In this document: in pieces, positions 46,499 through 64,000 of the stretch | How the letters are laid out: every line of letters begins with the position of its first letter | Numbering within the stretch: position 1 is the stretch's first letter | DNA from: Candidatus Omnitrophota bacterium | GTDB taxonomy: Bacteria > Omnitrophota > Gorgyraeia > Gygaellales > Profunditerraquicolaceae | NCBI GenBank assembly: GCA_043800555.1 | Contig: JAZDMX010000017.1 | Span: forward strand, 4,068-68,067 | Direction of reading: 5' to 3' | DNA length: 64,000 bases | The notes under the pieces: generated by a model | Seen by the model: only the letters and a program-made list of their open reading frames with translations | Databases searched by the model: none | What the model was told of the DNA's origin: nothing | Made by a program: the position numbers and the translations under genes

Positions 46499-48064
46499 TC
46501 ATATTATCCTTTGCGCCTTTTTGCCCTTGTTTCTCCAGGCGATCTTGACCAGCGCCGCTAAAATCAGGAATAACGCGAACAGCCCGATCCGGGTTGCCAG
46601 TATAAACGGCTGATTTATCGCGGGGACATTCTTCATAAAGATAACCGGCAGCCACTCCTGCGCAAACCACATCCCGAAGATAATAAAGAGAAAGGCCGGA
46701 GTAATATATTTAATTATAAACTTGTAGGCTTTAGGCACCCGCATATCCGCGCCTTTGTGTATCTGGCTCCAAGCTTCATCCATGCCGAAAACCCAGGCAA
46801 ATAATATTACCTCTATCGTGGCAAAGAGAACCAAAAAGAATGTCCCGCCCCAGAAATCCAGCTCATCCACGACCCCCCGGCCAAGGAAAAATATCACCGG
46901 CTGGCAAAGCAAGAATGAAACCGCCCCCAATATGGACACCGCCTTCTTGCGGTTGATGCCAAACTCGTCTTCCAGAAAAGCCACAGCCGGCTGAGCCAGG
47001 GAAATTGACGATGTAATTCCCGCTAAAAACAAAAGGAAAAACCATAAGAAACCCAATATATTTGAAAACGGCATCTTGTTAAGTATCAGCGGCATCGTCA
47101 CGAAACCAAGATTAAAAACTCCGGAGCGGGCAATATCGCCTATTTGCGTTGGCCCGAAGAATACAAATGCCGCGGTAATTACAATGCTTCCGCCGATAAT
47201 CACTTCTGCGAATTCATTCATCATAGAAGCAGTCAGCCCGGAAAGGACCACGTCATCCCCCTTCTTCAAATAACTGGCGTAGGTAAGGATTACGCCGATA
47301 CCGACGCTAAGGGTAAAGAAAATCTGGCCGGCTGCATCCAGCCAGATTTTAGCGGATTTTAAGGCGCTAAAATCGGGGTTCCAGAGAAACCCCATTCCAT
47401 TAGTTACGCTCCAGGCCGGATGAAGAGAGCTGGGGGCCCCCAGCGTCAATACGCGCGCCATCAGCACAAAACCGAAAATAAGAAGCGTGCCCAGGGCCCA
47501 TTTGCATATCTTCTCAATTCCACCGCGGATGCCAAAATAAATTACCCAGATATTAACCGTAAAAGCAATTAAGAAGAATACGTACGCCGGGGCCAGGCCC
47601 TGAAAATAGGAATTGTGTTCCAGGCCCTGGAAACCCCTCAAGAAAGACTGCATATCTGCTTGAGTGGCAACAGCGCTATATTTGCCCAAGAGCGCGAAAA
47701 AACTGTAAGCCAACGCCCAGCATTCGATGTAGCTGTAATATATAAAAATAACCAGCGGCCCAAAAATCCCGATTACCCCAAAGTATTTAATAAACTTGTT
47801 CTTCCTCCATAGGCTATGGAATATACCCGGGGCTGTCCCGTGCTCAAAGCCGCCGCCGTAACGGCCAAGCGTCCACTCAACCCACATCAAAGGTATGCCT
47901 AATAAGAAAAGGGAGACAAAATAAGGGATCATAAAGGCCCCGCCGCCATTGGAAGCCGCCTTAGCCGGGAACCTTAAGAAATTCCCCAGGCCTACGGCTG
48001 AACCGGCGACTGCCATGATGATGCCTAAACGCGACCCCCAACTCTCTCTAGCCTTAGCCATCAA
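46499..48064 (-). CDS. Neurotransmitter:sodium symporter (NSS/SNF) family transporter.
   Basis: GSAVGLGNFLRFP N-terminal NSS motif and about 12 TM segments. Confidence 0.85.
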   Translation of the reverse strand: MMAKARESWGSRLGIIMAVAGSAVGLGNFLRFPAKAASNGGGAFMIPYFVSLFLLGIPLMWVEWTLGRYGGGFEHGTAPGIFHSLWRKNKFIKYFGVIGIFGPLVIFIYYSYIECWALAYSFFALLGKYSAVATQADMQSFLRGFQGLEHNSYFQGLAPAYVFFLIAFTVNIWVIYFGIRGGIEKICKWALGTLLIFGFVLMARVLTLGAPSSLHPAWSVTNGMGFLWNPDFSALKSAKIWLDAAGQIFFTLSVGIGVILTYASYLKKGDDVVLSGLTASMMNEFAEVIIGGSIVITAAFVFFGPTQIGDIARSGVFNLGFVTMPLILNKMPFSNILGFLWFFLLFLAGITSSISLAQPAVAFLEDEFGINRKKAVSILGAVSFLLCQPVIFFLGRGVVDELDFWGGTFFLVLFATIEVILFAWVFGMDEAWSQIHKGADMRVPKAYKFIIKYITPAFLFIIFGMWFAQEWLPVIFMKNVPAINQPFILATRIGLFALFLILAALVKIAWRNKGKKAQRII

Positions 48065-48536
48065 GGAACCATCTTTCTAGTTTTCTCAGGGTTTTAGAAA
48101 CCTGCGGGCTCAATTTGTCCCCAAACACCAATACTTCGGGCTGGATAGCCAGAATGATTATATCCGTATTTTTCAAACTGTTTTTCAAATAATTAATCGA
48201 TAAATTTATCGAAGCATCGTGGGTTGAGAAAAAATTGACCGTCTGGAGATCTTGCGCTTCTAAAACCCGGAATTCACCGGACTCCCCCCCAAAATCAACG
48301 GCATCGATAAGTAAAATAGTATCGGGGTTATCTCCGATAACCTTACCTAAGAAGTTTTCGGGGGCTAAGCCCGTGTCGTAGACTATGCCAGCGACTTTAT
48401 CCTGAATACGGCTGGCTAGTATTGAACCTACGCCGTCGTCACTACGCAAAGTATTGCCGATGCCTAAGATTACGGATTTACCGGATAAGCGCAACTTAAG
48501 ATTGCCAAGGATATCGAGGCTAAAATTTTTTTCCAT
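48054..48536 (-). CDS. [NiFe]-hydrogenase maturation endopeptidase (HycI/HybD family).
   Basis: LGIGNTLRSDDGVG signature motif. Start chosen at MEKNFSL. Confidence 0.7.
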   Translation of the reverse strand: MEKNFSLDILGNLKLRLSGKSVILGIGNTLRSDDGVGSILASRIQDKVAGIVYDTGLAPENFLGKVIGDNPDTILLIDAVDFGGESGEFRVLEAQDLQTVNFFSTHDASINLSINYLKNSLKNTDIIILAIQPEVLVFGDKLSPQVSKTLRKLERWFLDG

Positions 48537-48834
48537 GCCTGTAAGGACGGCCTTTATTATATTCCATTTTCTTAGACAAGGCTTTCTCCAAATCAATTTT
48601 CCTTGCCCCGCAATAGTCAAAGATGCGAATGCAGCAATCCGCCAGTTCCTCGGCCAGTTCTTCTTTCCTGCCGTGGTTACGCATCGCCTCAAGCGCCTCG
48701 GATAATTCGGAATGCATCAGGGCGATGAGCTCTCCGTCATTACGCTCATCCTCCCACCATCCCTTGGATTTAGCTATACGGTTACATTCCTTTATGAGAT
48801 CACTTATGCTTTGTTTTGATTTTAACCGCATCAA
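48520..48834 (-). CDS. MazG-like all-alpha nucleotide pyrophosphohydrolase domain protein.
   Basis: ELIALMHSELSEALEAMR and EELADCCIRIFDYC, EExxE-type metal-binding helices. Confidence 0.4.
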   Translation of the reverse strand: MMRLKSKQSISDLIKECNRIAKSKGWWEDERNDGELIALMHSELSEALEAMRNHGRKEELAEELADCCIRIFDYCGARKIDLEKALSKKMEYNKGRPYRHGKKF

Positions 48835-52069: not shown

Positions 52070-52083
52070 CGGTTCGTTTATGG

Positions 52084-52835: not shown

Positions 52836-52865
52836 CACCTTTTTCAATAACCAAACCTCTTAAAT

Positions 52866-53336
52866 TTATCTTGCGCTGGAAGCTTGCGGCTGTGTAAGAT
52901 ATTTACTTAACGCGTTCCAAGTCTTAGGGCCCACCTTTCCATCGGCCGTCAAAGAATTGGCTTTCTGGAATTCCGTTATCGCCTTTTTTGTTTTTGCCCC
53001 GATTTTTCCGTCAACTACTCCGGTATAAAAACCCGCGCTCTTAAGCGCTGCCTGGATCTCTGCGGCTGCCGGCTTATATGGCCCGGACGGAGGAAGCGGC
53101 TCTAGTTTTACCGCTTTGCTGACAACAGGAATACCCACATCCACCTTAGCCTCGGGGGCTTTAGTTTCTGCTTTAGCTTCCGGAGAGAGCGGAGCCGGGG
53201 CAGCCATAGACATGGTGCTTAAGGTCTCCATAGACATCGGCTGCTGCATCTCTTCCAATGTTTGCTGTTTTTTCCCGCACCCAACAAGATATGCCCCAAC
53301 CGCAAATACTAAAACAATAAATACATATTTCTTCAT
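52866..53336 (-). CDS. Lipoprotein with a C-terminal peptidoglycan-binding domain (PG_binding_1).
   Basis: LVGCGKK lipobox. IQAALKSAGFYTGVVDGKIGAKTKKAITEFQKANSLTADGKVGPKTW. Confidence 0.6.
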   Translation of the reverse strand: MKKYVFIVLVFAVGAYLVGCGKKQQTLEEMQQPMSMETLSTMSMAAPAPLSPEAKAETKAPEAKVDVGIPVVSKAVKLEPLPPSGPYKPAAAEIQAALKSAGFYTGVVDGKIGAKTKKAITEFQKANSLTADGKVGPKTWNALSKYLTQPQASSAR

Positions 53337-53405
53337 TTGTTCACCTCCTTCATGGTTTGTCTAATTTTATCAAATTATCCCAAAAATGCAAATGAAATAC
53401 GTTTA

Positions 53406-54650: not shown

Positions 54651-54660
54651 CCCTGTTATA

Positions 54661-55275
54661 TTATGATCTTAAAACTGCCTCGCGCCGGCAACTCGGGCAA
54701 AGGACCTTTAAGCGCGTAGAACGATTAATTTCCGCAGGCTTATTACCGGGATTAACTTTCTCCTTCAAGGCGAGGCCAACGTTCCTTAAATAAAATAATA
54801 ATAACGACGCGTTGGTAAAGGAGAGCAGCCCTAATCTTTTAGCTACCCACGCATACTGGTCCCGGGGCACAATCGGATCGCCGCAACACTCGCAGATAAC
54901 GAATTCTTTTTCTATCGCCTGTTTTAAGTCCTCTCTTCTTCCCGTAGTGGCAAAATCAAACTCCTGCGAAAGCATAATACCCTTAGAGGTCAGGCAATTC
55001 GCCTGGCACTGCCCGCAAAATATGCAAATGTCCCAATGCACGGTTAATTTCCTTTTAGCAATGCCCCCCTTTATTTCATCCACCACTTCTATTGCTTTAG
55101 CCGGGCATACCTGAGCGCAAGCACCGCAACCCGTGCAATCCTCTTCATGAAAATAAGGCCTCCCGCGAAACCGCTCAAAAGGCTTATGCGGCTTACGCGG
55201 AAAATCGTTTGTATAAGCGGGGCTAAACAATGACCTGAACGCTTCTTTTAATTCTCTTAGCTTTGGCCTGCGCAT
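54661..55275 (-). CDS. Ech hydrogenase subunit F / NuoI-like 2x[4Fe-4S] ferredoxin subunit.
   Basis: CTGCGACAQVCP and CIFCGQCQANC. Confidence 0.7.
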   Translation of the reverse strand: MRRPKLRELKEAFRSLFSPAYTNDFPRKPHKPFERFRGRPYFHEEDCTGCGACAQVCPAKAIEVVDEIKGGIAKRKLTVHWDICIFCGQCQANCLTSKGIMLSQEFDFATTGRREDLKQAIEKEFVICECCGDPIVPRDQYAWVAKRLGLLSFTNASLLLFYLRNVGLALKEKVNPGNKPAEINRSTRLKVLCPSCRREAVLRS

Positions 55276-55277
55276 TT

Positions 55278-57041
55278 TTATTTATTTCTCCCAAAAATCC
55301 ATCTTAAACTAAAAATAAAAATTAATCCTTCCGGTATTTTATTCAATATATTATAAATATCAAACTTTTCGTTCTTTAAAAACCGGTAAAAAATAGCCAA
55401 TAAGGGAAGATTTTCTATTGTTTTATAAAACTCTGTAGCCGGAAAATCAGGCGCGTCATAACCCAGCTCTCCGCCGGAGAAATAGGTGTCTTTCCTTACC
55501 TTTCTTTTCAAGCCTGTCGCCATCCACAGAACAAAACCCAAGGACAGGGCAATACCCAAAAACAGTAAAACAGATATACTGTTCCATGTGCCGGCGTAAT
55601 TTAAAACAAAGGAAAAATCCGGAGCCAGAAAGCCTTTAATAAAGGAATCGGAAAATACCCCAAGCAAAACGCAGAGCCCGGACAAAACCAGTAAAGGCGT
55701 AAGCATCTTCCAAGAAACCCCGGCAGGTTCTTTCTTGCGAGCATTATTCTCCTGCCCTAAAAAGATGGCGTGAATAAACTTAATAAAACTTGCTAAGGTA
55801 AGAGCGCTGCCAAACATTGCTGAAATCAAAGCAAAGGCGTAAATAAAACGCAAAAGAGCCCCGGAAGACGCGGTCAACCCTAAAAACGCGCCCTGATAAA
55901 TCATCCATTTAGAACTAAAACCGTTAAAAGGAGGGACTCCGGAAATAGACAAGCTCAAAATCAAAGCGCTGATAAAGGTAAGCGGCATATAGCGGGCCAA
56001 ACCTCCTAATTTATCAAGATCAAATGTCCCCTTTTTCTTTTCTACCACGCCGCCCACAAGAAATAATCCGTTTTTATATATCGCGTTATTGAACATGTGG
56101 AATATTGCTCCGATTATCCCTATAGGATTTCCGGTGCCTAATCCTAACACCATATATCCTGCCTGGCTTACGGCATGATAAGAAAGAAGCTTTCTCAAGT
56201 CATGCTGGATAAGCGCCATTAAAACCGCAAAAATTATTGTAAGGCTGCCGATAATCAATAAAATACCGATCACAAAATCATTCAAAACAAAAAAATCAAG
56301 GCAAAGGCGCGATAATATATACACGCCGAGTAATTTATCAAAAGACGCCGGCAATATCGCCATAACCGGGATAGGGGCGCTCTCTGCGGCAGTCGGTATC
56401 CAGGTATGAAAAGGGCCCGAACCTACTTTTGCCAAAGCCCCGATGAGCATAAGGCAAAAGGCAAGCCAGGAAACCGGCCGGGCTAAAACCATGCTCCCGG
56501 AGCCAAACATAGCCATTGAACCGCTAACCTTAAAATAGATAACGGATCCGGCGATAAAACAAACCCACGAAAAACCCAGTATGGTCGCGGCTTTTTTCGC
56601 GCTAAGCTTAGAACCCAAATTAAGCAAGGCATAAAGGGTAAGGATCGAACCGGCCCAGGCTGTTGAGAATACAAGAAAATCCGCCGCTAAGATTTCCAGA
56701 TTGGTAAAAGCCATCAATAACAAAAGCCAGGAAAAATACCCGCGCTTATCCTGCATATAATCCTTGGAATAAAGGCAGATTAAAACGCCGAAAAGATTGG
56801 CGAAAATAAGAATAAGCCGGCTAAGCTTATCCAACCCAAGGGTTAAGGTATAGCTGTTAAACAAATAACTATGCCAGGAAGCTTGCGGCTTCAGAAAAAG
56901 GAATACGGAAAACGCGAAAATCAAGAAAAACACGCCTAAGCTTAAGTTTTTCCTTAAATTACCGTAATTCCCCGGTAAAAATAAGATTAGCCCGGCGGCA
57001 AAAGGAAGGGCAAATATGAAAAACAGGCTTACATCCATCAT
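55278..57041 (-). CDS. Ech hydrogenase subunit A / NuoL-like antiporter-type membrane subunit.
   Basis: A 587-aa polytopic protein with the NuoL/HyfB/EchA pattern. Confidence 0.7.
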   Translation of the reverse strand: MMDVSLFFIFALPFAAGLILFLPGNYGNLRKNLSLGVFFLIFAFSVFLFLKPQASWHSYLFNSYTLTLGLDKLSRLILIFANLFGVLICLYSKDYMQDKRGYFSWLLLLMAFTNLEILAADFLVFSTAWAGSILTLYALLNLGSKLSAKKAATILGFSWVCFIAGSVIYFKVSGSMAMFGSGSMVLARPVSWLAFCLMLIGALAKVGSGPFHTWIPTAAESAPIPVMAILPASFDKLLGVYILSRLCLDFFVLNDFVIGILLIIGSLTIIFAVLMALIQHDLRKLLSYHAVSQAGYMVLGLGTGNPIGIIGAIFHMFNNAIYKNGLFLVGGVVEKKKGTFDLDKLGGLARYMPLTFISALILSLSISGVPPFNGFSSKWMIYQGAFLGLTASSGALLRFIYAFALISAMFGSALTLASFIKFIHAIFLGQENNARKKEPAGVSWKMLTPLLVLSGLCVLLGVFSDSFIKGFLAPDFSFVLNYAGTWNSISVLLFLGIALSLGFVLWMATGLKRKVRKDTYFSGGELGYDAPDFPATEFYKTIENLPLLAIFYRFLKNEKFDIYNILNKIPEGLIFIFSLRWIFGRNK

Positions 57042-57655
57042 TTTATCTGAAGAAGGCTCTTAGCAATTTTCTTAATATGGTAATAGACCGCGGCCGTAAA
57101 ATCCAGCATATTCAAAAACATGTTGCATCCCAAAGGGGTGCATTCGCCGGCAAACATCCTTTGATTGTGATTATGGCGGTACTGATCAACGAGGCTATCG
57201 ATATGTTCTTCTTTCCTTAATACTTCTTTAATCAAAGACGGATTATCTTTCTCCAGAACAAAAACCACCTCTTCCAGCGCCCCTTTTGTTTTATTATAAA
57301 GGTCCTTATATTCCTCCACCGCCTCTTCGCTAAAAAGGAGCTTCTCTTCTATTTTTATCTGGATCCTTTCTAAGATATCCTTGCAGTAGTCCCCGATTAG
57401 TTCGAAATCCCCGGCGATATTGGCATAAACCATAACCTCGGATTTCTCCTTAGGAGTAAAATCAACGCCCGCCTTGCCGATGATTTCCTTATTAATCTCC
57501 TCCTCCAGGGCATTTAATTTGTTCTCCTCTTCAAGCGCCTTGGTGATCAGGTTCACGTCGTGCTCGATAAAAGCGCTGTAAGTAAGCTGCCACATAGTTG
57601 AAGCGCATATACTCATACGGTTGATTTTTTCCTTAATGCTATCCAGCTCTACCAT
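57038..57655 (-). CDS. PhoU-domain-like helical protein embedded in the hydrogenase operon.
   Basis: Two helical repeats with acidic E/D pattern positions. Weak assignment. Confidence 0.3.
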   Translation of the reverse strand: MVELDSIKEKINRMSICASTMWQLTYSAFIEHDVNLITKALEEENKLNALEEEINKEIIGKAGVDFTPKEKSEVMVYANIAGDFELIGDYCKDILERIQIKIEEKLLFSEEAVEEYKDLYNKTKGALEEVVFVLEKDNPSLIKEVLRKEEHIDSLVDQYRHNHNQRMFAGECTPLGCNMFLNMLDFTAAVYYHIKKIAKSLLQIK

Positions 57656-57750
57656 AAGGGCCCTCCTATCAGATTAGACAAAGGCACAAATTAAAGAAAC
57701 GCTACCGGCTTTTCTTACTGCGCCTTTTGCTCCTGTCATCTAGCGGATAA

Positions 57751-58950
57751 TCAACCTCGCTTCTCTTGCCTTAACTTAAGGGTTTTTTCTTGTGAAAGCT
57801 TGATCAGGTCCCAGCCATTCATCACCTTACGGTTATCAATTTTATTGATGACTGCCACCCTCTCTGTGCAACAATAACAGGGGTCAACCGCCGCAAGCGT
57901 CAGCGTGGCGTCGGAAATCGTCCCTCCCACGGCAGAAACCTTATCAGAAGCAACATTCATAAAGCTAGGCGAGCGGATCTTATGCCTTAGGGGGCGGTTT
58001 GTCCCGTCGCTCTTTATATAGTGGAAACATTCCCCCCGGGGGGCTTCAACCCTGCCGATACCTTCTCCGGAAGGGATGTCCTTGACTTCGGCGTCAATGA
58101 ATGCGCTCTTGGGTATTTTGTTCAAAGACTGCCTGATAATACTGATGCTTTCATATAACTCCAGGATCCTAACCACTGTTTTACAAAAGATATCGCCGTC
58201 TTTCTCCAGGATAACGTTCCAATCCAGCCGGTCAATAGCCCCGTAAGGCTCATCCCTGCGGATATCAATGTTTACCCCTGAAGCGCGGGCAGTCGGGCCG
58301 ATGACACACCAGTCGATCACCTGTTGACGGCTTAATAGCCCAACGTCCTTTAGCCTTGATTTTATTACCGGGTCATCCATGATCGCGCCACGGAATAAAT
58401 CCACAGCCGGAATTAATTCATCCAGCATCTTTTTTAAAACGGGGATATCCTCATCTTTTATGTCCCGCCTTAGCCCGCCGATCTTAAACATAGCGTAGTT
58501 GTTACGGTTACCGGTAACCATTTCAAAACAATCCAAAACCGGCTCGCGGTATTTCCAAGCCCACATCCAAATAGTATTGTAACCGATAAAATGCCCAACC
58601 AGGCCCAGCCACAAAAGATGGCTATGGATCCTCTGTAGCTCATCAATTATCGTGCGGATATAAAGCGCCCTCTCCGGGACAACCGTTGCTTCTCCGCCTA
58701 AGATATTCTCCACCGCCAAGCAATAAGCGTAGGGATGGCTCGATGAACAGATCCCGCAAATACGCTCAACCAAATAAGGGATCTGGTCAAAATGCTTGGA
58801 TTCGGAAAGTTTTTCTATGCCGCGGTGGTTATAGCCGATAATAATATCTATATCCACCACTCGCTCGCCATCGACATAAAGCTGGAAATATTCCGGCTCT
58901 TCCTGTAACGGATGGTATGGCCCTATCGGGACGATGATTTTATGGCTCAT
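57751..58950 (-). CDS. Group 4 [NiFe]-hydrogenase large subunit (EchE/HycE/NuoD-like).
   Basis: GPYHPLQEEPEYFQLYVDGERVVD...IGYNHRGIEK, RICGICSSSHP (L1 motif) and a C-terminal DPCYCCTER motif followed by a ~35-aa tail. Confidence 0.85.
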   Translation of the reverse strand: MSHKIIVPIGPYHPLQEEPEYFQLYVDGERVVDIDIIIGYNHRGIEKLSESKHFDQIPYLVERICGICSSSHPYAYCLAVENILGGEATVVPERALYIRTIIDELQRIHSHLLWLGLVGHFIGYNTIWMWAWKYREPVLDCFEMVTGNRNNYAMFKIGGLRRDIKDEDIPVLKKMLDELIPAVDLFRGAIMDDPVIKSRLKDVGLLSRQQVIDWCVIGPTARASGVNIDIRRDEPYGAIDRLDWNVILEKDGDIFCKTVVRILELYESISIIRQSLNKIPKSAFIDAEVKDIPSGEGIGRVEAPRGECFHYIKSDGTNRPLRHKIRSPSFMNVASDKVSAVGGTISDATLTLAAVDPCYCCTERVAVINKIDNRKVMNGWDLIKLSQEKTLKLRQEKRG

Positions 58951-59375
58951 TTATTGTTCCTCAATGGGAATTCATTTTCCGGCCAGTCTTCGCTAAGCAA
59001 GAGCCTCTTCAAATTCGGATGCCCTTTAAAATTAATCCCCAGCATCTCCCAGATTTCCCGCTCCATCCACCCGGCCCCGGCAAACAACGGAGTTATCGAC
59101 TGGACTTCCGGATTAAGTTTATCTTCCAATAAAACGCGGACAGAAAATATTGTGCCTGCGGGATCATTGCTGAAATGATAAAGGACCTCAAAACAATCCG
59201 GCAAATCCGTGCCTGTTGCGGCAATAAACCTCAACTCCAGCTCTTTAAAACAAACCTGTGCCGCTTTGAAGATATCATCTTTATCTACCCTGAAATATAC
59301 CCTCTTGACGGACTTCTCCTGCCAATCCTTTATCTTATCCCGGAGCCTTTCTTTTATCCTATCGCGCATATCCAT
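58947..59375 (-). CDS. NuoC/EchD-like hydrogenase subunit (complex I 30-kDa family).
   Basis: Family-level similarity and its position in the operon. Confidence 0.7.
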   Translation of the reverse strand: MDMRDRIKERLRDKIKDWQEKSVKRVYFRVDKDDIFKAAQVCFKELELRFIAATGTDLPDCFEVLYHFSNDPAGTIFSVRVLLEDKLNPEVQSITPLFAGAGWMEREIWEMLGINFKGHPNLKRLLLSEDWPENEFPLRNNK

Positions 59376-59378
59376 GGC

Positions 59379-59804
59379 TTATTTACCCTTCTTTACTTTA
59401 TTCACCAATTTCACGATGCCATCAATGATTGCCTCGGGTTTTGGCGGGCATCCCGGAATGTATAAATCCACCGGTAATATCTTATCCAAAGGCCCAACGA
59501 CATTATAGCTATCCCTGAACATATGCTGCGAAAGCGCGCAAGTCCCGCAGGCAATCACCACGCAAGGCTTAGGCGCCTGCTCGTAGACCTTTTTCATCCT
59601 CACAACTGCCTTTCTATTCATCGCTCCGGTGATTAAAAACGCGTCGGCATGCCGGGCTGAACCGATAAGCTGTATGCCAAAACGCTCAAGGTCATGGCGG
59701 GGAGTAAAACAATCCAAGATTTCGATATCACAGTTATTGCAGGAGCCTACGCTCATATGGAATACCCAGATTGATTTAGTAAAAGCTCTCTTGATTATGT
59801 TCAT
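59379..59804 (-). CDS. NuoB/EchC-like [NiFe]-hydrogenase small subunit.
   Basis: CGTCALSQHMF ... YIPGCPPKPEAIIDGI. Confidence 0.85.
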   Translation of the reverse strand: MNIIKRAFTKSIWVFHMSVGSCNNCDIEILDCFTPRHDLERFGIQLIGSARHADAFLITGAMNRKAVVRMKKVYEQAPKPCVVIACGTCALSQHMFRDSYNVVGPLDKILPVDLYIPGCPPKPEAIIDGIVKLVNKVKKGK

Positions 59805-59903
59805 ATTTAGAATTTATGAATTAATTTGGCCGCAAATTACCAGATAGAACCGCTATCCGGGAGCCTCTAAATTTACAGTTCTCTTTGATCCTGCTGTTTC
59901 TCC

Positions 59904-60815
59904 TTATTTCCCCAATAATGCTAATATAAGCGCTATTACCCCTATTATCGTCGGCACTCTCCAGAAAAACCTCAAAACCTGGTCGATGCGTAAACGCGGG
60001 TTGGTGTTCTTGATTAATATGATTATAATTAACAGCATTAAATATTTGGCAACCAAGAATACCGGGCTTAGGTCTTTGCCCAAAAACAAAATTATGACAA
60101 AAAGCAAAACAGCATAAAGCATCACCGCTTTAGTCAGCTTAAATACCGCTAGCGGCAGCCCGGAGTATTCGATTAAAGTCCCGCCCATAATCTCCTGATC
60201 GGCTTCGGCGACATCAAAAAGGCCCATTCCTAATTTAGCCTGCGCGCAGAAGACGGCAACGAGAAAAGCCAAAGCGCCTGAAAATGAAAATACATTTGAA
60301 CCGGAGATCGCTTGCTGTTGAATGATTTGGCCAATTTGCAACGCGCCCTTGCTTTTAATCACCACAGTAATTATGGATAAAATTAAAGGCAACTCATAGG
60401 CTAAAAGCAATTTAATCTCTCTGGATACTCCCACGGAAGCAAGGGGGTTTCTCGAAGAAGAACCGCCGATCATCAAAGCTATTGCCGGTATTGCTAAAAG
60501 GTAGAAGATCACGATTAAATCCCCGCAAAAGCTTTCTAATGGCAGGATTATATTCCTGCCTAAATTTGCGCTTACCAATACGGCGCTGATTAACCCCAGA
60601 TACGGAGAAAATAAAAACGTGAACCTGGCTCCTTCGGGGACAATTACCTCTTTGCCTAATAATTTTATGATATCGGTAAAATTCTGGTGCCAGGGAGGCC
60701 CGTGCCTCCATTGCAAGCGCGCAGTAAGCTTTCTTTCCACCCAACCGGATAAAAGACCGATTGAGGCGCTAAATAAAAAACCCGGGAATATTAAATAGTT
60801 AAATAGTACGCTCAT
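59904..60815 (-). CDS. NuoH/EchB-like membrane subunit.
   Basis: Eight TM segments with the NuoH/HycD pattern. Confidence 0.75.
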   Translation of the reverse strand: MSVLFNYLIFPGFLFSASIGLLSGWVERKLTARLQWRHGPPWHQNFTDIIKLLGKEVIVPEGARFTFLFSPYLGLISAVLVSANLGRNIILPLESFCGDLIVIFYLLAIPAIALMIGGSSSRNPLASVGVSREIKLLLAYELPLILSIITVVIKSKGALQIGQIIQQQAISGSNVFSFSGALAFLVAVFCAQAKLGMGLFDVAEADQEIMGGTLIEYSGLPLAVFKLTKAVMLYAVLLFVIILFLGKDLSPVFLVAKYLMLLIIIILIKNTNPRLRIDQVLRFFWRVPTIIGVIALILALLGK

Positions 60816-60938
60816 TTAATTAAATTTTATCGGGTTCCGGACTCCAGATAAATCCCGCCATCCAATGTTTGAATAACCCGACGCCTTGTGGCCGGTAAAT
60901 TGATCGCCGGTTATGGAATTTGGTGCTTGGCTGTTCAT

Positions 60939-61433
60939 TTATTTCTTCCTTGGAGGCTGCACGTCTTCTCTGGACCATTTGCGCGAATGCACCGCCAAAT
61001 GCTCTCCTACAAAATAGATATCCTGTTCAAGGCTCTCTTGCGCATCCCTGATTTCTATGGCTTTCTCCGGGCAGCTAGATACGCATTTAGGGGGCCTTGC
61101 GCTTTTACCTACGCAATAATCGCACTTGGAATCCAGGTATGGTATAAAATCCTGGAAAATAATCCCGAAGGGGCAGGCCACAGAACAAGACTTACAACTT
61201 GTGCAACGCATCTTATAACGCTTGATATGCCCGTCGCTGGCCCGCTCCAGCGCATTATGGTAACAAGAATTTACGCAAGGCGCTTCTTCGCAATGCCGGC
61301 AGATAGTGGCAAAGGTGGCATATTCGCGCAAAGAGACAATCCCGTTATTCTGCGGGTGATAGAAATAACCGCAGGCGACCTTGCATTCTTTGCACTTATC
61401 GCAAATATCCAAATCTATAAATAATCTTTTCAT
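60939..61433 (-). CDS. HycB/HydN-like poly-[4Fe-4S] ferredoxin electron-transfer subunit.
   Basis: Four Cys-cluster motifs: CDKCKECKVAC, CRHCEEAPCVNSC, CTSCKSCSVACP and CDYC...CVSSCP. Confidence 0.7.
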   Translation of the reverse strand: MKRLFIDLDICDKCKECKVACGYFYHPQNNGIVSLREYATFATICRHCEEAPCVNSCYHNALERASDGHIKRYKMRCTSCKSCSVACPFGIIFQDFIPYLDSKCDYCVGKSARPPKCVSSCPEKAIEIRDAQESLEQDIYFVGEHLAVHSRKWSREDVQPPRKK

Positions 61434-61482
61434 CTACGCCTTTGCCCGCAGGCCATAACAATAGAGCCCGGGGTGGGCTCTC

Positions 61483-62301
61483 TTAGTCCCATATATCGTG
61501 TATATCCTTTAACTGTCCGTAGGCAAAAACCGGGCCGTCTTTACAAGCGTAGTATTTGCCGATACGGCAATGCCCGCATTTACCCAAACCGCAGGACATG
61601 CTTTTCTCCATAGATAAATATATATCCTCCGGCTTAATCCCTAAATCCAGCAACTTTAATGTAACGAATTTCATCATAATCGGAGGGCCGCACACTATTC
61701 CCAAAGTATTCGCAAAATCTACGGGGGCGTTACCTAATATCGTAGTGACTAACCCCACGTTTCCCTGCCATTGAGGGTCTCCTACATCAACGCTGGCCAG
61801 AACATCCACTTTATCTTTTTTAGACCATTCGGGTATAAGGCTCTTATAAACAATGTCTTTTGACGAACGAGAACCGTAACGCAAAACTACTTTATTGTAT
61901 TTGTCGATTGTGGCAAAAAGGCTAAATAGGAGCGAACGTAAAGGCGCCAGCCCTACTCCTCCGCCTACAATTAGAATATCTTTTCCTTTAAATTTGTCCA
62001 AAGGGTAGCCCTTGCCGTAGGGGCCGCGGATACCCACCACATCTCCCTGGCGCATAGAATGTAATTTCGAGGTAACCTCGCCGGCATTCATAATAGTAAG
62101 CTCCAGTTCCCCGTTAATTCCGGGATCCGAGGAAGGGGTAAAAGGCGCTTCTCCTGCCCCGGGAACAGTTAATTCGATGAATTGGCCGGTTGAAAATGTA
62201 AAAACTCCTTCGGGCTTAAGCCTGAAGGTTTTTATCGTAGGCGTTTCCTCGATGACCTCTTCGATAACGGCCTTAAGCGGCTGGTATATGTTTTTCTTCA
62301 T
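61483..62301 (-). CDS. AsrB/HydG/PyrK-like FAD/NAD(P)-binding oxidoreductase subunit with a C-terminal [2Fe-2S] cluster.
   Basis: FAD-binding region, ILIVGGGVGLAPL NAD(P)-binding region, and CGLGKCGHCRIGKYYAC. Confidence 0.75.
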   Translation of the reverse strand: MKKNIYQPLKAVIEEVIEETPTIKTFRLKPEGVFTFSTGQFIELTVPGAGEAPFTPSSDPGINGELELTIMNAGEVTSKLHSMRQGDVVGIRGPYGKGYPLDKFKGKDILIVGGGVGLAPLRSLLFSLFATIDKYNKVVLRYGSRSSKDIVYKSLIPEWSKKDKVDVLASVDVGDPQWQGNVGLVTTILGNAPVDFANTLGIVCGPPIMMKFVTLKLLDLGIKPEDIYLSMEKSMSCGLGKCGHCRIGKYYACKDGPVFAYGQLKDIHDIWD

Positions 62302-63373
62302 ATAATTTCCTTAGTATCCGGCGGATATCAATCTTGCCGGGGCAGACTTCAATGCATCTGCCGCATCCGCAACAAGCCTGATACCCCAGGTTAGAAACAA
62401 AAAAATCGAATTTCTTTAAATAACGGTTGCGCAGCCTCATATAGCGCATCTTTAACGCGTTGCCCCCTCCGGCGACCTTGGTGAAATTCTTCAAAAGGCA
62501 ACCGTCCCAAAGCCGAAGGCGCTTGGCTAGGCCCGAAGAAGGAGTATCCGAGAGCAAGAAACAATGGCAGGTATCGCACATAAATACGCAAGCGTTGCAT
62601 TCAACGCAAGTGCGCATTTCTTCCTGCCAGATCCCGGAATTATAACCCGATAAGACTATATCCTGCAAAGTTTCCTTCTTGGGGATCTTGTAGCGGGCAA
62701 GATGCTCATCCATCCGTATATTTACCGACTCTCTTTTTGCCCCCCTGCCTGAAAGCTGGCCCAAAGTAGCCGGAACCAATAGATTCTTGACGGAAACAGC
62801 TATTATTTTAGCTTTCTGCGTTGCAATATCAAGAAGATAGCCGTTATTAAGCGGAGAAAGATTAAAATCGAAGGCTTCTGTGGGGTAAGGATTGATGCCA
62901 AATGCCCGGCAGAAACAAGCTTCCTTGAAATGCGGGCAGTCGCTAGCGACGATCAAGGCGCTCTCTCTCCTTGATTTATAAAGAGGGTCGGCTTCATCGC
63001 CTCCTAAAAACACAAAATCCTGCACCTTTAATGAAAATAAATCGCAATTCTTTATCCCGCAAAGAGCAACCGGCCTCTCCCTTCTTTCTTTTGCCTTTGG
63101 TTCCTCAAAATATCCGCATGCCTCTTCTTTGTAATGGGTGAAAAATGCGCGGACAGGCTCAACTGCCCGGTAATCGCTGAAAACTATATCTTCTTTTTTA
63201 AGTTGAGAGAATTTTTTTAAGGAATAATCATCGGTAGGCAAGCCCTCCCGGCAGCTACACTCGTCTCTCTTGAGAGGAGACCTTTCAACCGTAGGGACAT
63301 ATAGCTCATACTCTTGAGCTAAACGCTCGTAGAATTTCAGCAAATCGTCGTTTTTTATAAAATACGTTTCCAT
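62273..63373 (-). CDS. AsrA/HydB-like iron-sulfur subunit (anaerobic sulfite reductase A / sulfhydrogenase beta family).
   Basis: Several Cys clusters: CGIKNCDLF, CVECNACVFMCDTCHC and CCGCGRCIEVCP. Confidence 0.65.
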   Translation of the reverse strand: METYFIKNDDLLKFYERLAQEYELYVPTVERSPLKRDECSCREGLPTDDYSLKKFSQLKKEDIVFSDYRAVEPVRAFFTHYKEEACGYFEEPKAKERRERPVALCGIKNCDLFSLKVQDFVFLGGDEADPLYKSRRESALIVASDCPHFKEACFCRAFGINPYPTEAFDFNLSPLNNGYLLDIATQKAKIIAVSVKNLLVPATLGQLSGRGAKRESVNIRMDEHLARYKIPKKETLQDIVLSGYNSGIWQEEMRTCVECNACVFMCDTCHCFLLSDTPSSGLAKRLRLWDGCLLKNFTKVAGGGNALKMRYMRLRNRYLKKFDFFVSNLGYQACCGCGRCIEVCPGKIDIRRILRKLYEEKHIPAA

Positions 63374-63380
63374 AGATTGG

Positions 63381-63830
63381 TTACCCGGACGAAAGCCTTG
63401 CCCTTACCAAATCGCTGACTAATTTACCGTCTGCCTGGCCAGCGATCCTGGCGTTTACCTCTTTCATAACCCTACCCATATCTTTCATGCCACAAGCTCC
63501 CAGGGCCCGGGCTACCTCTTCGACTATCTTCTCAATATCCTCAGCGGGAAGCTCGACAGGAAGATATGTTCTTAAGATTTCCAGCTCCTTCTTCTCCTTA
63601 TCGGCCATTTCCAGCCGCTCTCCCCTGGTAAACTGCTCGATAGAATCCTGATGCTGTTTTATCTGTTTCTTGATAACGGCAATTGCCTCAGCGTCATCAA
63701 GGCCGGTTTTCTTTTTGGCAACCGCAACATTCATCATATCAGCCCGTAAAAAACTTAAAACCGAACTCTTTAATTTATCCCCGGACTTCATTGCTTCTTT
63801 ATAATCATTAAGAATCTTCTCTTCCAGCAT
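63381..63830 (-). CDS. GatB/YqeY domain protein.
   Basis: Full-length YqeY-like sequence. Confidence 0.8.
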   Translation of the reverse strand: MLEEKILNDYKEAMKSGDKLKSSVLSFLRADMMNVAVAKKKTGLDDAEAIAVIKKQIKQHQDSIEQFTRGERLEMADKEKKELEILRTYLPVELPAEDIEKIVEEVARALGACGMKDMGRVMKEVNARIAGQADGKLVSDLVRARLSSG

Positions 63831-63842
63831 AAACCCTCCTTT

Positions 63843-64000
63843 AAAACAACACGCATCTCTTGAATCCGGCTAGCCTTCTATTCAAATCTCCCATAGTAAG
63901 CTTAGAGGTCCTTTCCAAGCCAAAATCTTCGATATTAAATGACGCGGCTATAGTGCCAAACGCAAGCGCGTTTCTGATATTCCGCATATTTAACGCTTGG
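63843..64000 (-). CDS. C-terminal fragment of an unidentified protein, possibly a PfkB-type sugar kinase. Its 5' end lies beyond the right edge.
   Basis: The minus-strand frame is open from the window edge and ends GFKRCVLF*. Confidence 0.25.

What the first reader, a model, noticed from the sequence alone, without database searches (positions are those of the whole stretch)
54661..63373. Ech-type group 4 [NiFe] hydrogenase next to an AsrA/AsrB (HydB/HydG)-like NAD(P)H module
The contiguous minus-strand genes are: an AsrA-like FeS protein, an AsrB-like FAD/NAD/[2Fe-2S] protein, a HycB-like polyferredoxin, NuoH-like, NuoB-like, NuoC-like, NiFe large subunit, a PhoU-like insert, NuoL-like and NuoI-like. 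The large subunit has group 4 hallmarks (GPYHP...IGYNHRG, RICGICSSSHP, DPCYCCTER). AsrAB/HydBG-type subunits are normally partners of cytosolic group 3b sulfhydrogenases, not of membrane-bound energy-converting hydrogenases. The arrangement therefore suggests an NAD(P)H-linked, ion-translocating hydrogenase or sulfur/sulfite reductase complex of uncertain type. A PhoU-like gene inside the operon is also unusual.
Basis: partly seen in the sequence, partly recalled or inferred. Interest (0 to 1): 0.6.

Follow-up and report, generated by a model that had tools for sequence, protein, structure and literature searches.

The report
Trimmed NAD(P)H-linked membrane-bound hydrogenase operon
This is a real ten-gene operon from an uncultured Omnitrophota bacterium that encodes a membrane-bound nickel-iron hydrogenase with an NAD(P)H-type electron module; the enzyme family is already known from genome surveys, but this copy has lost most of its ion-pumping arm and keeps a conserved PhoU-like protein whose role is unknown.

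Summary
All ten minus-strand genes (54661-63373) have the stated domains, order and [NiFe] motifs.

The large subunit is group 4; its best solved relative is P. furiosus MbhL. It belongs to a widespread Omnitrophota family that the literature labels "Group 4g, Mrp-linked Mbh". By descent it is therefore not an Ech.

The AsrA/AsrB-like + HycB-like module is a fixed feature of this family. By ORF assignment it is present in 53 of 54 related loci that extend far enough, across at least four phyla. Similar modules next to group 4 hydrogenases were reported in 2019 and 2026.

Two things are particular to this window's clade (window plus about 9 MAGs):
- Seven Mrp-type membrane genes have been lost, leaving only a NuoH-like and one antiporter-like subunit. 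This matches the subunit composition of E. coli FHL-1 and Ech.
- An Omnitrophota-specific PhoU-fold gene follows the large subunit.

All ten genes are under strong purifying selection (dN/dS 0.04-0.12).

My best reading is an FHL-type electron wire: NAD(P)H/FAD, then Fe-S relay, then [NiFe], coupled to ion translocation. The direction of operation is unresolved.

Verdict: new variant of a known, biochemically uncharacterised kind. Interest is moderate.

The parts
62273..63373 (-). HydB/ShyB/AsrA-like iron-sulfur subunit (366 aa), predicted to carry three [4Fe-4S] clusters. It starts 7 nt after the stop of the upstream YqeY gene.
   Evidence: Pfam Fer4_22 1.4e-25. NCBIfam ShyB 154 bits, HydB 126 and AsrA 117, all below the equivalog cut-offs. 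PDB SHI beta 9nez_B E 3.9e-27 over residues 52-357. Cys motifs at 105/110/146/153/155, 256-271 and 334-344. Present upstream in the related loci.
61483..62301 (-). HydG/ShyC/AsrB-like FAD + NAD(P)-binding + [2Fe-2S] subunit (272 aa). This is the proposed NAD(P)(H) site.
   Evidence: Pfam FAD_binding_6, NAD_binding_1 and DHODB_Fe-S_bind. PDB SHI gamma 9nez_C E 4.6e-56 with a near full-length alignment that keeps GGVGLAPLRS, CGPP and CGLGKCGHC. AsrB equivalog 225 bits against a cut-off of 288.6. dN/dS 0.06.
60939..61433 (-). HycB/CooF-like polyferredoxin (164 aa, 16 Cys in four cluster motifs). Proposed connector between the NAD(P)H module and the hydrogenase module.
   Evidence: Pfam Fer4_11 1.4e-12. 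Best PDB hit is E. coli formate hydrogenlyase subunit HycB 7z0s_B, E 2e-14. Cys positions. Always located between the AsrB-like and NuoH-like genes in relatives.
59904..60815 (-). NuoH/MbhM/HycD-like membrane anchor subunit (303 aa, about 8 TM segments).
   Evidence: Pfam NADHdh 6.7e-61. Hydropathy analysis.
59379..59804 (-). NuoB/MbhJ/HycG-like small subunit (141 aa) with four Cys for the proximal [4Fe-4S] cluster.
   Evidence: Pfam Oxidored_q6 6.9e-29. NCBIfam NuoB family 145 bits. Cys 22, 25, 89 and 119.
58947..59375 (-). NuoC/MbhK-like subunit (142 aa).
   Evidence: Pfam Complex1_30kDa 2.5e-28.
57751..58950 (-). Group 4 [NiFe]-hydrogenase large subunit (399 aa). Ni-Fe ligands are C65/C68 (RICGICSSSHP) and C358/C361 (DPCYCCTER). 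It has a 35-aa HycE-like C-terminal extension, presumably removed by the HycI-type protease.
   Evidence: Pfam Complex1_49kDa 4.4e-65 + NiFeSe_Hases 6.5e-14. PDB MbhL 6cfw_L 290 bits, ahead of HycE 7z0s_E at 246 bits. Thousands of Omnitrophota homologues at 79-88% identity. dN/dS 0.03-0.06.
57038..57655 (-). PhoU-fold six-helix-bundle protein (205 aa), soluble. An Omnitrophota-specific accessory of this hydrogenase family, with invariant Asp/Glu/His and three invariant Cys.
   Evidence: Pfam PhoU 2.9e-19. TIGR02135 45 bits against a cut-off of 130. AlphaFold model pLDDT 92.5. Foldseek TM 0.8-0.89 to PhoU crystal structures at 16-19% identity. Invariant D83xELIGDYCKDxLER97, H151, D153, D157, C172, C177, D185 and H193. 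About 370 homologues; every source name shown for the listed hits is Omnitrophota/Omnitrophica. dN/dS 0.05-0.06.
55278..57041 (-). The single NuoL/MrpA/MbhH-type antiporter-like membrane subunit (587 aa, about 14 TM segments plus a roughly 70-aa amphipathic C-terminal tail).
   Evidence: Pfam Proton_antipo_M 1.8e-43. PDB MrpA 6z16_A and MbhH 6cfw_H, E about 1e-35. TM7 Lys, TM8 Asp-Lys and TM12 Lys are kept; TM5 Glu is replaced (WA/WG) in the whole family. Closest to the second antiporter of the three-antiporter relatives, 48-56% identity. dN/dS 0.12.
54661..55275 (-). NuoI/HycF/MbhN-like 2x[4Fe-4S] subunit (204 aa) with a Cys-rich C-terminal extension.
   Evidence: Pfam Fer4_7/Fer4. NCBIfam 'formate hydrogenlyase complex iron-sulfur subunit' 89 bits. 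PDB HycF 7z0s_F E 8e-16 and MbhN 6cfw_N E 3e-11. Cys positions.
48054..48692 (-). HycI-type hydrogenase maturation endopeptidase, about 6 kb downstream. Likely processes the C-terminal extension of the large subunit.
   Evidence: Pfam HycI 2.1e-13. Same relative position in L003.

Best explanation
[quoted passage not shown] Its electron-input enzyme is an NAD(P)(H)-binding flavoprotein pair homologous to the beta/gamma subunits of soluble sulfhydrogenase.

The inferred wire is: NAD(P)H <-> FAD and [2Fe-2S] (AsrB/HydG-like) <-> three [4Fe-4S] (AsrA/HydB-like) <-> up to four [4Fe-4S] (HycB-like) <-> two [4Fe-4S] (NuoI/HycF-like) <-> one [4Fe-4S] (NuoB-like) <-> [NiFe] site <-> 2H+/H2. This is the architecture of E. 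coli FHL-1 with formate dehydrogenase FdhF replaced by a HydBG-type NAD(P)H module.

Redox turnover would be coupled to ion movement through the NuoH-like and antiporter-like membrane subunits. NAD(P)H (-320 mV) is a weaker reductant than H2 (-414 mV) under standard conditions. The complex should therefore do one of two things. It could conserve energy while oxidising H2 to make NAD(P)H. Or it could use the ion gradient, or very low H2, to vent NAD(P)H electrons as H2. I cannot decide the direction.

In this window's lineage the ancestral Mrp-type sodium/proton module (seven genes) was deleted. That left a minimal two-subunit membrane arm like those of FHL-1 and Ech. The PhoU-fold protein is a conserved, probably metal-binding accessory or regulatory subunit of unknown role.

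Shown: gene content, cofactor motifs, homologies, conserved synteny, secondary loss and purifying selection. Inferred: physical assembly into one complex, NAD(P)H as the substrate, ion coupling and direction.
For: - Domain and motif content of all ten genes.
- The large subunit is group 4 and closest to MbhL and HycE.
- The AsrA/AsrB-like proteins match SHI beta and gamma, the NADPH-oxidising pair, over nearly their full length with cofactor motifs intact.
- The connector's best solved relative is FHL HycB, and the NuoI-like protein matches HycF.
- The AsrA-AsrB-HycB-NuoH-NuoB-NuoC-LSU order is kept in 53 of 54 loci with room upstream. These have 60-93% LSU identity and come from Omnitrophota, Auribacterota (Ca. 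Tritonobacter), Ca. Mcinerneyibacterium, FCPU426 and Bacteroidales. Median intergenic gaps are -4 to 5 nt.
- No Fdh-like or other catalytic partner lies upstream in the ten deep loci checked.
- A Rex-type NADH-sensing repressor lies directly upstream of AsrA in two loci from two phyla, L022 and L064.
- All ten genes have dN/dS 0.03-0.13 within the Mrp-less clade.
- The antiporter-like subunit keeps the family's conserved Lys/His/Asp residues.
- A HycI protease is in the window, and the large subunit has a HycE-like cleavage site.
- The Mrp-less clade nests inside Mrp-bearing relatives.
- Two-subunit membrane arms are functional in characterised enzymes: FHL-1 structure 7z0s, and purified T. 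kivui Ech translocates H+ (title of PMC9356269).
Against: - No biochemical or expression data exist for any member of the family.
- All published genome papers assume ferredoxin as the donor (PMC8542988, PMC9324843, PMC10066038).
- The HycB-like or NuoI-like clusters could also accept electrons from ferredoxin, so NAD(P)H may be a second partner rather than the only one.
- The AsrA/AsrB-like proteins fall below every NCBIfam equivalog cut-off, so substrate specificity is extrapolated.
- Assembly into one complex could not be modelled, because only single chains can be predicted here.
- The first antiporter-like subunit lacks the canonical TM5 glutamate throughout the family. The window type also lacks NuoJ/K-like subunits, so ion coupling in the trimmed form is uncertain.
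- The window has unusually long gaps inside the operon (123, 99 and 95 nt) and a weak hairpin after the AsrB-like gene.
Confidence: 0.55

Rival explanations
1. This is an ordinary ferredoxin-dependent, H2-evolving Mbh/Ech-type hydrogenase. The AsrA/AsrB/HycB-like genes encode a separate soluble NAD(P)H:ferredoxin (or NAD(P)H:acceptor) oxidoreductase that is merely co-transcribed because it feeds the same redox pool.
For: The published interpretation of this family is ferredoxin-coupled 'Group 4g Mbh' (PMC8542988, PMC9324843, PMC10066038). MbhN and EchF accept ferredoxin electrons directly in characterised enzymes (established knowledge). In the window there are a 49-nt gap with a weak hairpin after the AsrB-like gene and a 123-nt gap after the HycB-like gene.
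Against: The order AsrA-AsrB-HycB-NuoH is invariant across at least four phyla, with median gaps of 5 nt or less and frequent start/stop overlaps. In the only solved structure with a HycB subunit next to a group 4 core (7z0s), HycB is a fixed subunit that bridges the input enzyme to HycF, and it is the best PDB match here. The promoter and terminator scans are at chance level.
Confidence: 0.25
2. The complex has three redox ends and works by electron confurcation/bifurcation, or as an Rnf-like ferredoxin:NAD(P)+ oxidoreductase with a hydrogenase valve. Ferredoxin enters at the HycB/NuoI clusters, and electrons leave to H+ at [NiFe] and/or to NAD(P)+ at the flavoprotein.
For: A 2026 in-silico study proposes bifurcation for Group 4b clusters that carry SHI beta/gamma homologues (PMC13582414). 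The large number of Fe-S clusters in the HycB-like and AsrA-like proteins would allow a branched path. This reading also removes the thermodynamic problem of making H2 from NAD(P)H alone (established redox potentials).
Against: There is no third catalytic protein in the operon, and no Fdh-like gene upstream in the ten loci checked. The homologous SHI gamma FAD is not known to bifurcate (my own knowledge, not tested). Nothing in the sequence marks a bifurcating flavin.
Confidence: 0.15
3. The trimmed operon in this window is a decaying, non-functional remnant left after deletion of the Mrp module.
For: Seven membrane genes present in close relatives are missing. The operon has three unusually long internal gaps. 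A neighbouring GH1 gene is frameshifted in this genome. One member of the clade, L011, has substitutions at the conserved antiporter Lys positions.
Against: All ten ORFs are intact. All metal ligands are retained. dN/dS is 0.04-0.12 at dS about 0.8-1.4 against the nearest relative. The same architecture is kept in about nine independent MAGs that have diverged to 83% LSU identity.
Confidence: 0.04

Closest known systems
Omnitrophota / Auribacterota 'Group 4g, Mrp-linked Mbh' hydrogenases, described from MAGs (Williams et al. 2021 PMC8542988; Williams et al. 2022 PMC9324843; Seymour et al. 2023 PMC10066038)
   Same: Same protein family. The window LSU is 63% identical to that of Ca. Tritonobacter lacicola MAG 3300035698_867 (L064) and 79-93% identical to many Omnitrophota LSUs. 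The upstream AsrA-AsrB-HycB-NuoH-NuoB-NuoC-LSU block is the same, and the flanking genes (YqeY, MFS_3, PG_binding, GH1, patatin) match those of L001.
   Different: The window clade lacks the MbhD/E, MnhB, NuoK-like, second antiporter, MnhE, MrpF and MrpG genes. In the passages I read (keyword searches, not the full texts), these papers assume ferredoxin as donor and do not mention the AsrAB-like module or the PhoU-like gene.
'Enigmatic' group 4 Mrp-Mbh hydrogenase of Saganbacteria with cooF-like, asrA-like and asrB-like genes (Matheus Carnevali et al. 2019, PMC6349859, main text and Supplementary Note 5)
   Same: A CooF/HycB-like + AsrA-like + AsrB-like 'oxidoreductase module' sits next to a group 4 hydrogenase. 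The authors state that the nearest relatives are in Zixibacteria and Omnitrophica.
   Different: The Saganbacteria clusters also carry a molybdopterin Fdh-like protein and Mrp subunits. The window has neither, and it has a PhoU-like gene that is not mentioned there.
E. coli formate hydrogenlyase FHL-1 (HycBCDEFG + FdhF; PDB 7z0s; HydDB group 4a)
   Same: Same modular logic and the same membrane-arm composition: one antiporter-like subunit (HycC) and one NuoH-like subunit (HycD). It has a HycB connector, HycF, HycG, a large subunit with a C-terminal extension, and a HycI protease.
   Different: The input enzyme is a HydBG-type NAD(P)H flavoprotein pair instead of FdhF. NuoC and the large subunit are separate genes. 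The LSU is closer to MbhL than to HycE. A PhoU-like subunit is present.
Pyrococcus furiosus membrane-bound hydrogenase MBH (PDB 6cfw; group 4d)
   Same: The best solved relatives of the LSU (290 bits) and, after Mrp MrpA (6z16_A), of the antiporter-like subunit. Ancestral relatives of the window enzyme carry an Mrp module like that of MBH.
   Different: MBH takes electrons from ferredoxin directly and has no HycB or HydBG module. The window enzyme lacks the Mrp Na+ module. Relatives have two or three antiporter-like subunits, more like MBS (6u8y_X is matched at 112 bits).
Pyrococcus furiosus soluble sulfhydrogenase I (group 3b; PDB 9nez), beta and gamma subunits
   Same: The AsrA-like and AsrB-like proteins are homologous over nearly their full length, with FAD/NAD(P)/[2Fe-2S] and [4Fe-4S] motifs conserved.
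   Different: Here they are partnered with a group 4 membrane-bound core through a HycB-like protein, not with group 3b alpha/delta subunits. Scores are far below the HydB/HydG and ShyB/ShyC equivalog cut-offs.
Ech hydrogenase (EchABCDEF; group 4e)
   Same: The six-subunit core composition matches: NuoL-, NuoH-, NuoB-, NuoC-, NuoD- and NuoI-like.
   Different: By descent the window enzyme is a trimmed Mrp-Mbh. It has three extra redox subunits, a PhoU-like protein, and a cleavable LSU C-terminus. No Ech reference sequence could be compared directly with these tools.

Membership tests
Group 4 (membrane-bound, complex I-related) [NiFe] hydrogenases | Large subunit homologous to NuoD / 49-kDa, with N-terminal CxxC and C-terminal CxxC Ni-Fe ligands | tested here: met
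   PF00346 4.4e-65 + PF00374. C65/C68 in RICGICSSSHP and C358/C361 in DPCYCCTER. MbhL and HycE are the best PDB hits.
Group 4 (membrane-bound, complex I-related) [NiFe] hydrogenases | NuoB-like small subunit with one [4Fe-4S] cluster, plus NuoC-, NuoI-, NuoH- and NuoL-like partners in the same cluster | tested here: met
   Pfam assignments. NuoB-like Cys 22/25/89/119.
Group 3b sulfhydrogenase (this would refute the finding) | Large subunit of the HydA/ShyA type with a group 3 small subunit | tested here: not met
   ShyA 43 bits against a cut-off of 700; HydA 18.5 bits against 880. Group 3 structures score 51 bits or less.
HydDB Group 4g (Mrp-linked Mbh of candidate phyla) | Large subunit clusters with sequences that HydDB assigns to 4g | tested here: inconclusive
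   HydDB itself could not be run. Indirect evidence: 63% identity and shared synteny with the Ca. Tritonobacter lacicola cluster (L064). The paper on that MAG reports a Group 4g Mbh with Mrp in one gene cluster, and L064 fits that description (PMC9324843). Identity is 79-93% to Omnitrophota LSUs, a phylum whose membrane-bound hydrogenases are reported as 4g (PMC8542988, PMC10066038). Group 4g is reported to be polyphyletic (PMC13582414).
HydDB Group 4g (Mrp-linked Mbh of candidate phyla) | Mrp-type antiporter module (MbhA-G / MnhB,E,F,G-like genes) in the cluster | tested here: not met
   No MbhD/E, MnhB, NuoK-like, MnhE, MrpF or MrpG between the LSU and NuoI genes in the window. They are present in L001 and most relatives.
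Ech-type hydrogenase (Group 4e) | Six-subunit EchA-F composition with only two membrane subunits | tested here: met
   The window has exactly one antiporter-like and one NuoH-like membrane gene, plus NuoB/C/D/I-like genes.
Ech-type hydrogenase (Group 4e) | Phylogenetic placement of the large subunit with characterised EchE sequences | not testable with these tools
   No EchE reference was available. The tree of related loci shows descent from Mrp-bearing enzymes, and the nearest solved relative is MbhL, which argues against membership.
Anaerobic sulfite reductase AsrABC | AsrA and AsrB equivalogs together with the siroheme subunit AsrC | tested here: not met
   TIGR02910 117 bits against a cut-off of 323; TIGR02911 225 bits against 288.6. 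There is no AsrC-like gene in the cluster or its flanks.
Sulfhydrogenase beta/gamma (HydB/HydG, ShyB/ShyC) | Equivalog-level similarity to the P. furiosus subunits | tested here: not met
   ShyB 154 against 690; HydB 126 against 750; HydG 194 against 650; ShyC 188 against 600. Homology and cofactor motifs are nevertheless clear. These are homologues in a distinct subfamily.
Formate hydrogenlyase-type architecture (input enzyme - HycB - HycF - HycG - HycE + HycC/HycD) | HycB-like four-cluster connector, HycF-like subunit, LSU with a cleavable C-terminus, and a HycI protease | tested here: met
   7z0s_B and 7z0s_F hits. A 35-aa extension after DPCYCCTER. HycI at 48054-48692.
Formate hydrogenlyase-type architecture (input enzyme - HycB - HycF - HycG - HycE + HycC/HycD) | Formate dehydrogenase as the electron-input enzyme | tested here: not met
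   No molybdopterin or Fdh-like gene lies in the cluster or upstream in the window or in the ten deep relatives checked.
PhoU (phosphate signalling complex protein) | PhoU-domain six-helix bundle | tested here: met
   PF01895 2.9e-19 with two repeats. Model pLDDT 92.5. TM 0.8-0.89 to PhoU crystal structures.
PhoU (phosphate signalling complex protein) | Equivalog-level similarity to PhoU and a pst operon context | tested here: not met
   TIGR02135 45 bits against a cut-off of 130. It always lies inside the hydrogenase operon. It has extra invariant Cys/His residues.

The most novel reading that the evidence does not exclude
This family could be a true 'NAD(P)H hydrogenlyase': an ion-translocating NAD(P)H:H+ oxidoreductase in which a HydBG-type flavoprotein module, unrelated to NuoEFG, has been plugged onto a group 4 hydrogenase. 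That would be an independent, living analogue of the step that turned a membrane hydrogenase into NADH-oxidising complex I. On this reading the window's clade is a natural minimal version, with two membrane subunits, that still couples. It would also carry a new PhoU-fold, Cys/His/Asp-rich metal-binding subunit that gates or matures the complex.
Probability: 0.35. Interest if true: 0.75.

Novelty: new variant of a known kind. Interest (0 to 1): 0.45.

Why it matters
The enzyme family is abundant in Omnitrophota and several other uncultured phyla: 7,981 of 8,000 scored candidates passed E <= 1e-10 for the large subunit. Metabolic reconstructions routinely describe it as a ferredoxin-driven H2-evolving Mbh.

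If the invariant HydBG-like module really wires it to NAD(P)H, those energy and redox budgets change. H2 uptake would make NAD(P)H with energy conservation, or NAD(P)H would be vented as H2 at an energetic cost.

The family would also be a natural parallel to the origin of complex I's NADH module.

The window's lineage adds a clean natural experiment. The catalytic core stays 83-84% identical to Mrp-bearing relatives while the membrane arm shrinks from nine subunits to two. This bears on what the minimal coupling unit of these machines is.

Finally, a conserved PhoU-fold subunit in a hydrogenase has no described precedent that I could find.

Tried and rejected
1. Separate transcription of the AsrAB-like genes. 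The sigma-70 promoter and intrinsic terminator scans of 52500-64000 were at chance (19 found against 19.2 expected; 18 against 15.5). The only hairpin in the AsrB-HycB gap (61481-61463) lacks a U-tract. This gives no support for a separate unit, though the tool is weak for this phylum.

2. Repeat or mobile-element origin of the three long intra-operon gaps (123, 99 and 95 nt). I read them directly and saw no obvious similarity among them or any known motif. I did not pursue this further.

3. Rex operator search near the cluster, prompted by Rex genes upstream of AsrA in L022 and L064. There were two window matches with 3 mismatches, neither near the operon, which is chance level.

4. Fdh-like partner, as in Saganbacteria and Group 4b. 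Pfam scans of the genes upstream of AsrA in ten deep relatives found none. They found H+-PPase, a hydrolase, a NIL-ferredoxin, Rex, a Crp-type regulator and a GGDEF protein.

5. Sulfite or sulfur reductase reading. Rejected because there is no AsrC, the scores are below cut-off, and the Ni-Fe ligands are intact, unlike in MBS.

6. Literature search for PhoU in membrane-bound hydrogenase or Mrp clusters. Nothing relevant was found.

7. Direct HydDB classification and comparison with EchE references were not possible with the tools.

8. I did not use the metagenome scan, the representative-protein search or the second structure job, because the 80 genome loci already answered the synteny question.

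Full report
**Observation**

The window carries ten contiguous minus-strand ORFs that span exactly 54661-63373. Pfam and NCBIfam scans give the following order:
- a Fer4_22 protein most like ShyB/HydB/AsrA (366 aa)
- an FAD_binding_6 + NAD_binding_1 + DHODB_Fe-S_bind protein most like HydG/AsrB (272 aa)
- a Fer4_11 polyferredoxin (164 aa)
- NuoH-like (303 aa)
- NuoB-like (141 aa)
- NuoC-like (142 aa)
- a Complex1_49kDa + NiFeSe_Hases large subunit (399 aa)
- a PhoU-domain protein (205 aa)
- a Proton_antipo_M protein (587 aa)
- a NuoI/HycF-like 2x[4Fe-4S] protein (204 aa)

So are the four Ni-Fe cysteines, C65/C68 and C358/C361.

**Organism and family**

The large subunit has thousands of homologues at 79-88% identity, and nearly all the named ones are from Candidatus Omnitrophota MAGs. 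A scan of one genome per species returned 80 loci with 60-93% LSU identity. Most are Omnitrophota. Others are Ca. Tritonobacter lacicola (Auribacterota), Ca. Mcinerneyibacterium aminivorans, FCPU426, WOR-3 and Bacteroidales MAGs. The PhoU-like protein has a 100% identical database entry from an NCBI Omnitrophota MAG with a 115-kb contig.

**Which group the hydrogenase belongs to**

Against solved structures the large subunit scores best with:
- P. furiosus MbhL (6cfw_L, 290 bits)
- E. coli HycE (246 bits)
- complex I NuoD (about 140-210 bits)

Group 3 large subunits score 51 bits or less.

HydDB itself could not be run. Three papers assign the membrane-bound hydrogenases of Omnitrophota and of Ca. 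Tritonobacter lacicola to 'Group 4g, Mrp-linked Mbh' (PMC8542988, PMC9324843, PMC10066038). Locus L064 comes from the same Tritonobacter MAG and is the only fetched locus that fits that paper's description of a hydrogenase with Mrp in one gene cluster. It shares 63% LSU identity and the same gene order with the window. A 2026 paper notes that 4g is polyphyletic (PMC13582414).

**The AsrA/AsrB-like module is a family feature**

Synteny was analysed by tblastn and by ORF assignment. The block AsrA-like, AsrB-like, HycB-like, NuoH, NuoB, NuoC, LSU is present in 53 of 54 loci that have room upstream. The one exception, L076, still shows AsrB by tblastn. Median intergenic distances are -4 nt (AsrA-AsrB), 5 nt (AsrB-HycB) and -4 nt (HycB-NuoH). 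This conservation across at least four phyla is the strongest available evidence that the three redox proteins work with the hydrogenase.

The pair is homologous to the NADPH-oxidising beta and gamma subunits of P. furiosus sulfhydrogenase I. 9nez_B matches at E 4e-27 and 9nez_C at E 5e-56, with GGxGxAPLRS, CGPP and the [2Fe-2S] CGxGKCGHC motif conserved. It scores below every HydB/HydG, ShyB/ShyC and AsrA/AsrB equivalog cut-off, so it is a distinct subfamily. No AsrC and no Fdh-like gene accompany it.

The connector's best solved relative is HycB of E. coli formate hydrogenlyase (7z0s_B). The NuoI-like protein matches HycF.

**Prior knowledge**

The link between AsrA/AsrB/CooF-like genes and group 4 hydrogenases is already in the literature.
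- Matheus Carnevali et al. 2019 describe an 'enigmatic' Mrp-Mbh hydrogenase in Saganbacteria with cooF-, asrA- and asrB-like genes forming an 'oxidoreductase module'. They name Zixibacteria and Omnitrophica sequences as the closest relatives (PMC6349859, main text and Supplementary Note 5).
- A 2026 study reports SHI beta/gamma homologues in Group 4b clusters and proposes NADPH-linked bifurcation (PMC13582414).
- In the passages I read from the Omnitrophota papers, the authors assume ferredoxin as donor and do not mention the module.

It is neither unique to this locus nor unreported, and it remains biochemically untested.

**What is particular to this window**

In most relatives the genes between the LSU and NuoI encode a full Mrp-type arm:
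- a first antiporter-like subunit
- MbhD/E
- MnhB
- a NuoK-like subunit
- a second antiporter-like subunit
- MnhE
- MrpF
- MrpG

Locus L001 is an example and has the same flanking genes as the window. Some relatives have three antiporter-like subunits (L015, L021, L024, L031, L045, L048, L052).

The window and L003-L011 have only PhoU plus one antiporter-like gene. L027 has PhoU plus two antiporter-like genes and no Mrp.

A neighbour-joining tree of NuoH+NuoB+NuoC+LSU groups the window with L003-L010. It nests that group among Mrp-bearing Omnitrophota, next to L026 and L011. The two-subunit arm is therefore a secondary loss and not an ancestral Ech.

The retained antiporter-like protein is 48-56% identical to the second antiporter of the three-antiporter type, and only about 43% identical to the first antiporter of the two-antiporter type. 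The membrane arm has thus also been reshuffled.

The trimmed composition equals that of E. coli FHL-1 (HycC + HycD) and of Ech.

**Is the trimmed operon functional?**

- All ORFs are intact and all cofactor ligands are present.
- Against the nearest relative L004 (dS 0.8-1.4), dN/dS is 0.04-0.12 for every gene. PhoU is at 0.06 and the antiporter-like gene at 0.12.
- The antiporter-like subunit keeps the TM7 Lys, TM8 Asp-Lys, TM12 Lys and His residues that are conserved across the family. The canonical TM5 Glu is replaced by Gly or Ala in the first antiporter of the whole family, not only here.
- The LSU ends with DPCYCCTER followed by 35 residues, as in HycE. A HycI-type protease lies 6 kb downstream, at 48054-48692. 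L003 has the same arrangement.

**The PhoU-like gene**

It is present directly after the LSU gene in 37 related loci, with or without Mrp. The median distance is -17 nt, which suggests translational coupling. In a deeper Omnitrophota clade it sits between MrpG and NuoI (L062, L067, L071, L072, L075, L076). It was not found in the non-Omnitrophota loci.

It has only about 370 database relatives at E <= 1e-5.

The AlphaFold model is confident (pLDDT 92.5). It superposes on PhoU crystal structures with TM 0.8-0.89 at 16-19% identity.

Thirty-one family members share these invariant residues: D83xELIGDYCKDxLER97, H151, D153, D157, C172, C177, D185 and H193. The E/DxxxD motifs of canonical PhoU bind metal clusters in crystal structures (my own knowledge). 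The extra invariant Cys and His suggest a metal site. This is inference, and the function is unknown. My guess is an accessory or regulatory subunit that docks on the cytoplasmic face of the complex.

**Mechanism**

The best-supported reading is an FHL-type wire: NAD(P)H, FAD/[2Fe-2S], AsrA-like clusters, HycB-like clusters, NuoI-like, NuoB-like, [NiFe], coupled to ion movement through the NuoH-like and antiporter-like pair.

From standard potentials (NAD(P)H -320 mV; H2 -414 mV), H2 evolution from NAD(P)H is uphill unless H2 is kept very low or the ion gradient is consumed. H2-dependent NAD(P)+ reduction could conserve energy. I cannot resolve the direction.

A Rex-type NADH-sensing repressor directly upstream of AsrA in L022 and L064 is compatible with an NAD(H) link, but it is not specific.

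The rivals are:
- a ferredoxin-only hydrogenase with a merely co-transcribed soluble oxidoreductase
- a three-ended confurcating, or Rnf-like, complex
- a decaying remnant

The last is disfavoured by the selection data.

**Operon structure in the window**

Internal gaps are 7 (YqeY-AsrA), -29, 49, 123, 99, 3, -4, 95, -4, 2 and 10 nt. The three long gaps are unusual for the family, and I saw no recognisable element in them. Promoter-like and terminator-like matches are at the level of shuffled sequence. Co-transcription therefore cannot be proved or refuted here. The family-wide tight spacing argues for a single unit.

**Verdict**

The finding is a correct and careful reading of the genes. Its 'Ech-type' label and its sense of uniqueness need correcting. 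This is a trimmed, PhoU-bearing variant of a widespread HydBG-linked Mrp-Mbh ('4g') family that has been noticed before but never characterised. I rate it a new variant of a known kind, with moderate interest.

Noticed in passing
window 51320-52611 (-): The glycosyl hydrolase family 1 gene downstream of the operon is split into two ORFs in different frames (175 aa N-terminal part, 249 aa C-terminal part). Relatives L001 and L003 have one ORF of 403-412 aa. This is a frameshift, meaning either a pseudogene or an assembly error.
   Followed up: partly
L015, L021, L024, L031, L045, L048, L052 (between LSU/PhoU and MbhDE); L027: Some Omnitrophota relatives carry three antiporter-like subunits (464 aa, about 630 aa, and about 492 aa inside the Mrp block). 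L027 has the first two but no Mrp genes. The membrane arm of this family is strikingly modular: the number of antiporter-like subunits ranges from 1 to 3, with or without Mrp.
   Followed up: partly
L022:3196-3828; L064:4375-5097: A Rex-type redox-sensing repressor gene (PF06971 + PF02629 in L064; Rex-like sequence in L022) lies immediately upstream of the AsrA-like gene in two loci from different phyla. No Rex box was found near the operon in the window.
   Followed up: partly
window 55278-57041 and all first antiporter-like subunits in L001-L083: The canonical TM5 glutamate of NuoL/M/N/MrpA/MbhH-type subunits is replaced by Gly (Ala in the window) in the first antiporter-like subunit of the entire family. 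The TM7, TM8 and TM12 lysines are conserved. The consequence for proton transfer is unknown.
   Followed up: partly
window 57751-58950; JGI names: Many homologues of this hydrogenase large subunit are annotated 'NADH-quinone oxidoreductase subunit D'. One Omnitrophota survey used PF00346 as its marker for respiratory complex I (PMC10066038). The trimmed operons could therefore be miscounted as complex I in metabolic reconstructions.
   Followed up: no
window 41230-41916 (-): A CbiM/NikM-type Co/Ni uptake membrane component lies about 13 kb downstream of the operon. It may supply nickel for the hydrogenase. Neighbouring transporter genes were not examined.
   Followed up: no
L009:about 1-1100, roughly 4 kb upstream of YqeY: L009 carries a second, distant hydrogenase-like pair close to the operon: an LSU-like fragment at 26% identity and a NuoB/small-subunit-like gene at 42%. 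This suggests another [NiFe] hydrogenase nearby in that genome.
   Followed up: no
window 57656-57750, 59805-59903, 60816-60938: There are three unusually long non-coding gaps (95, 99 and 123 nt) inside the operon, where most relatives have overlaps or gaps under 20 nt. The closest relative, L004, also has long gaps (74-195 nt). I saw no repeat or known motif.
   Followed up: partly
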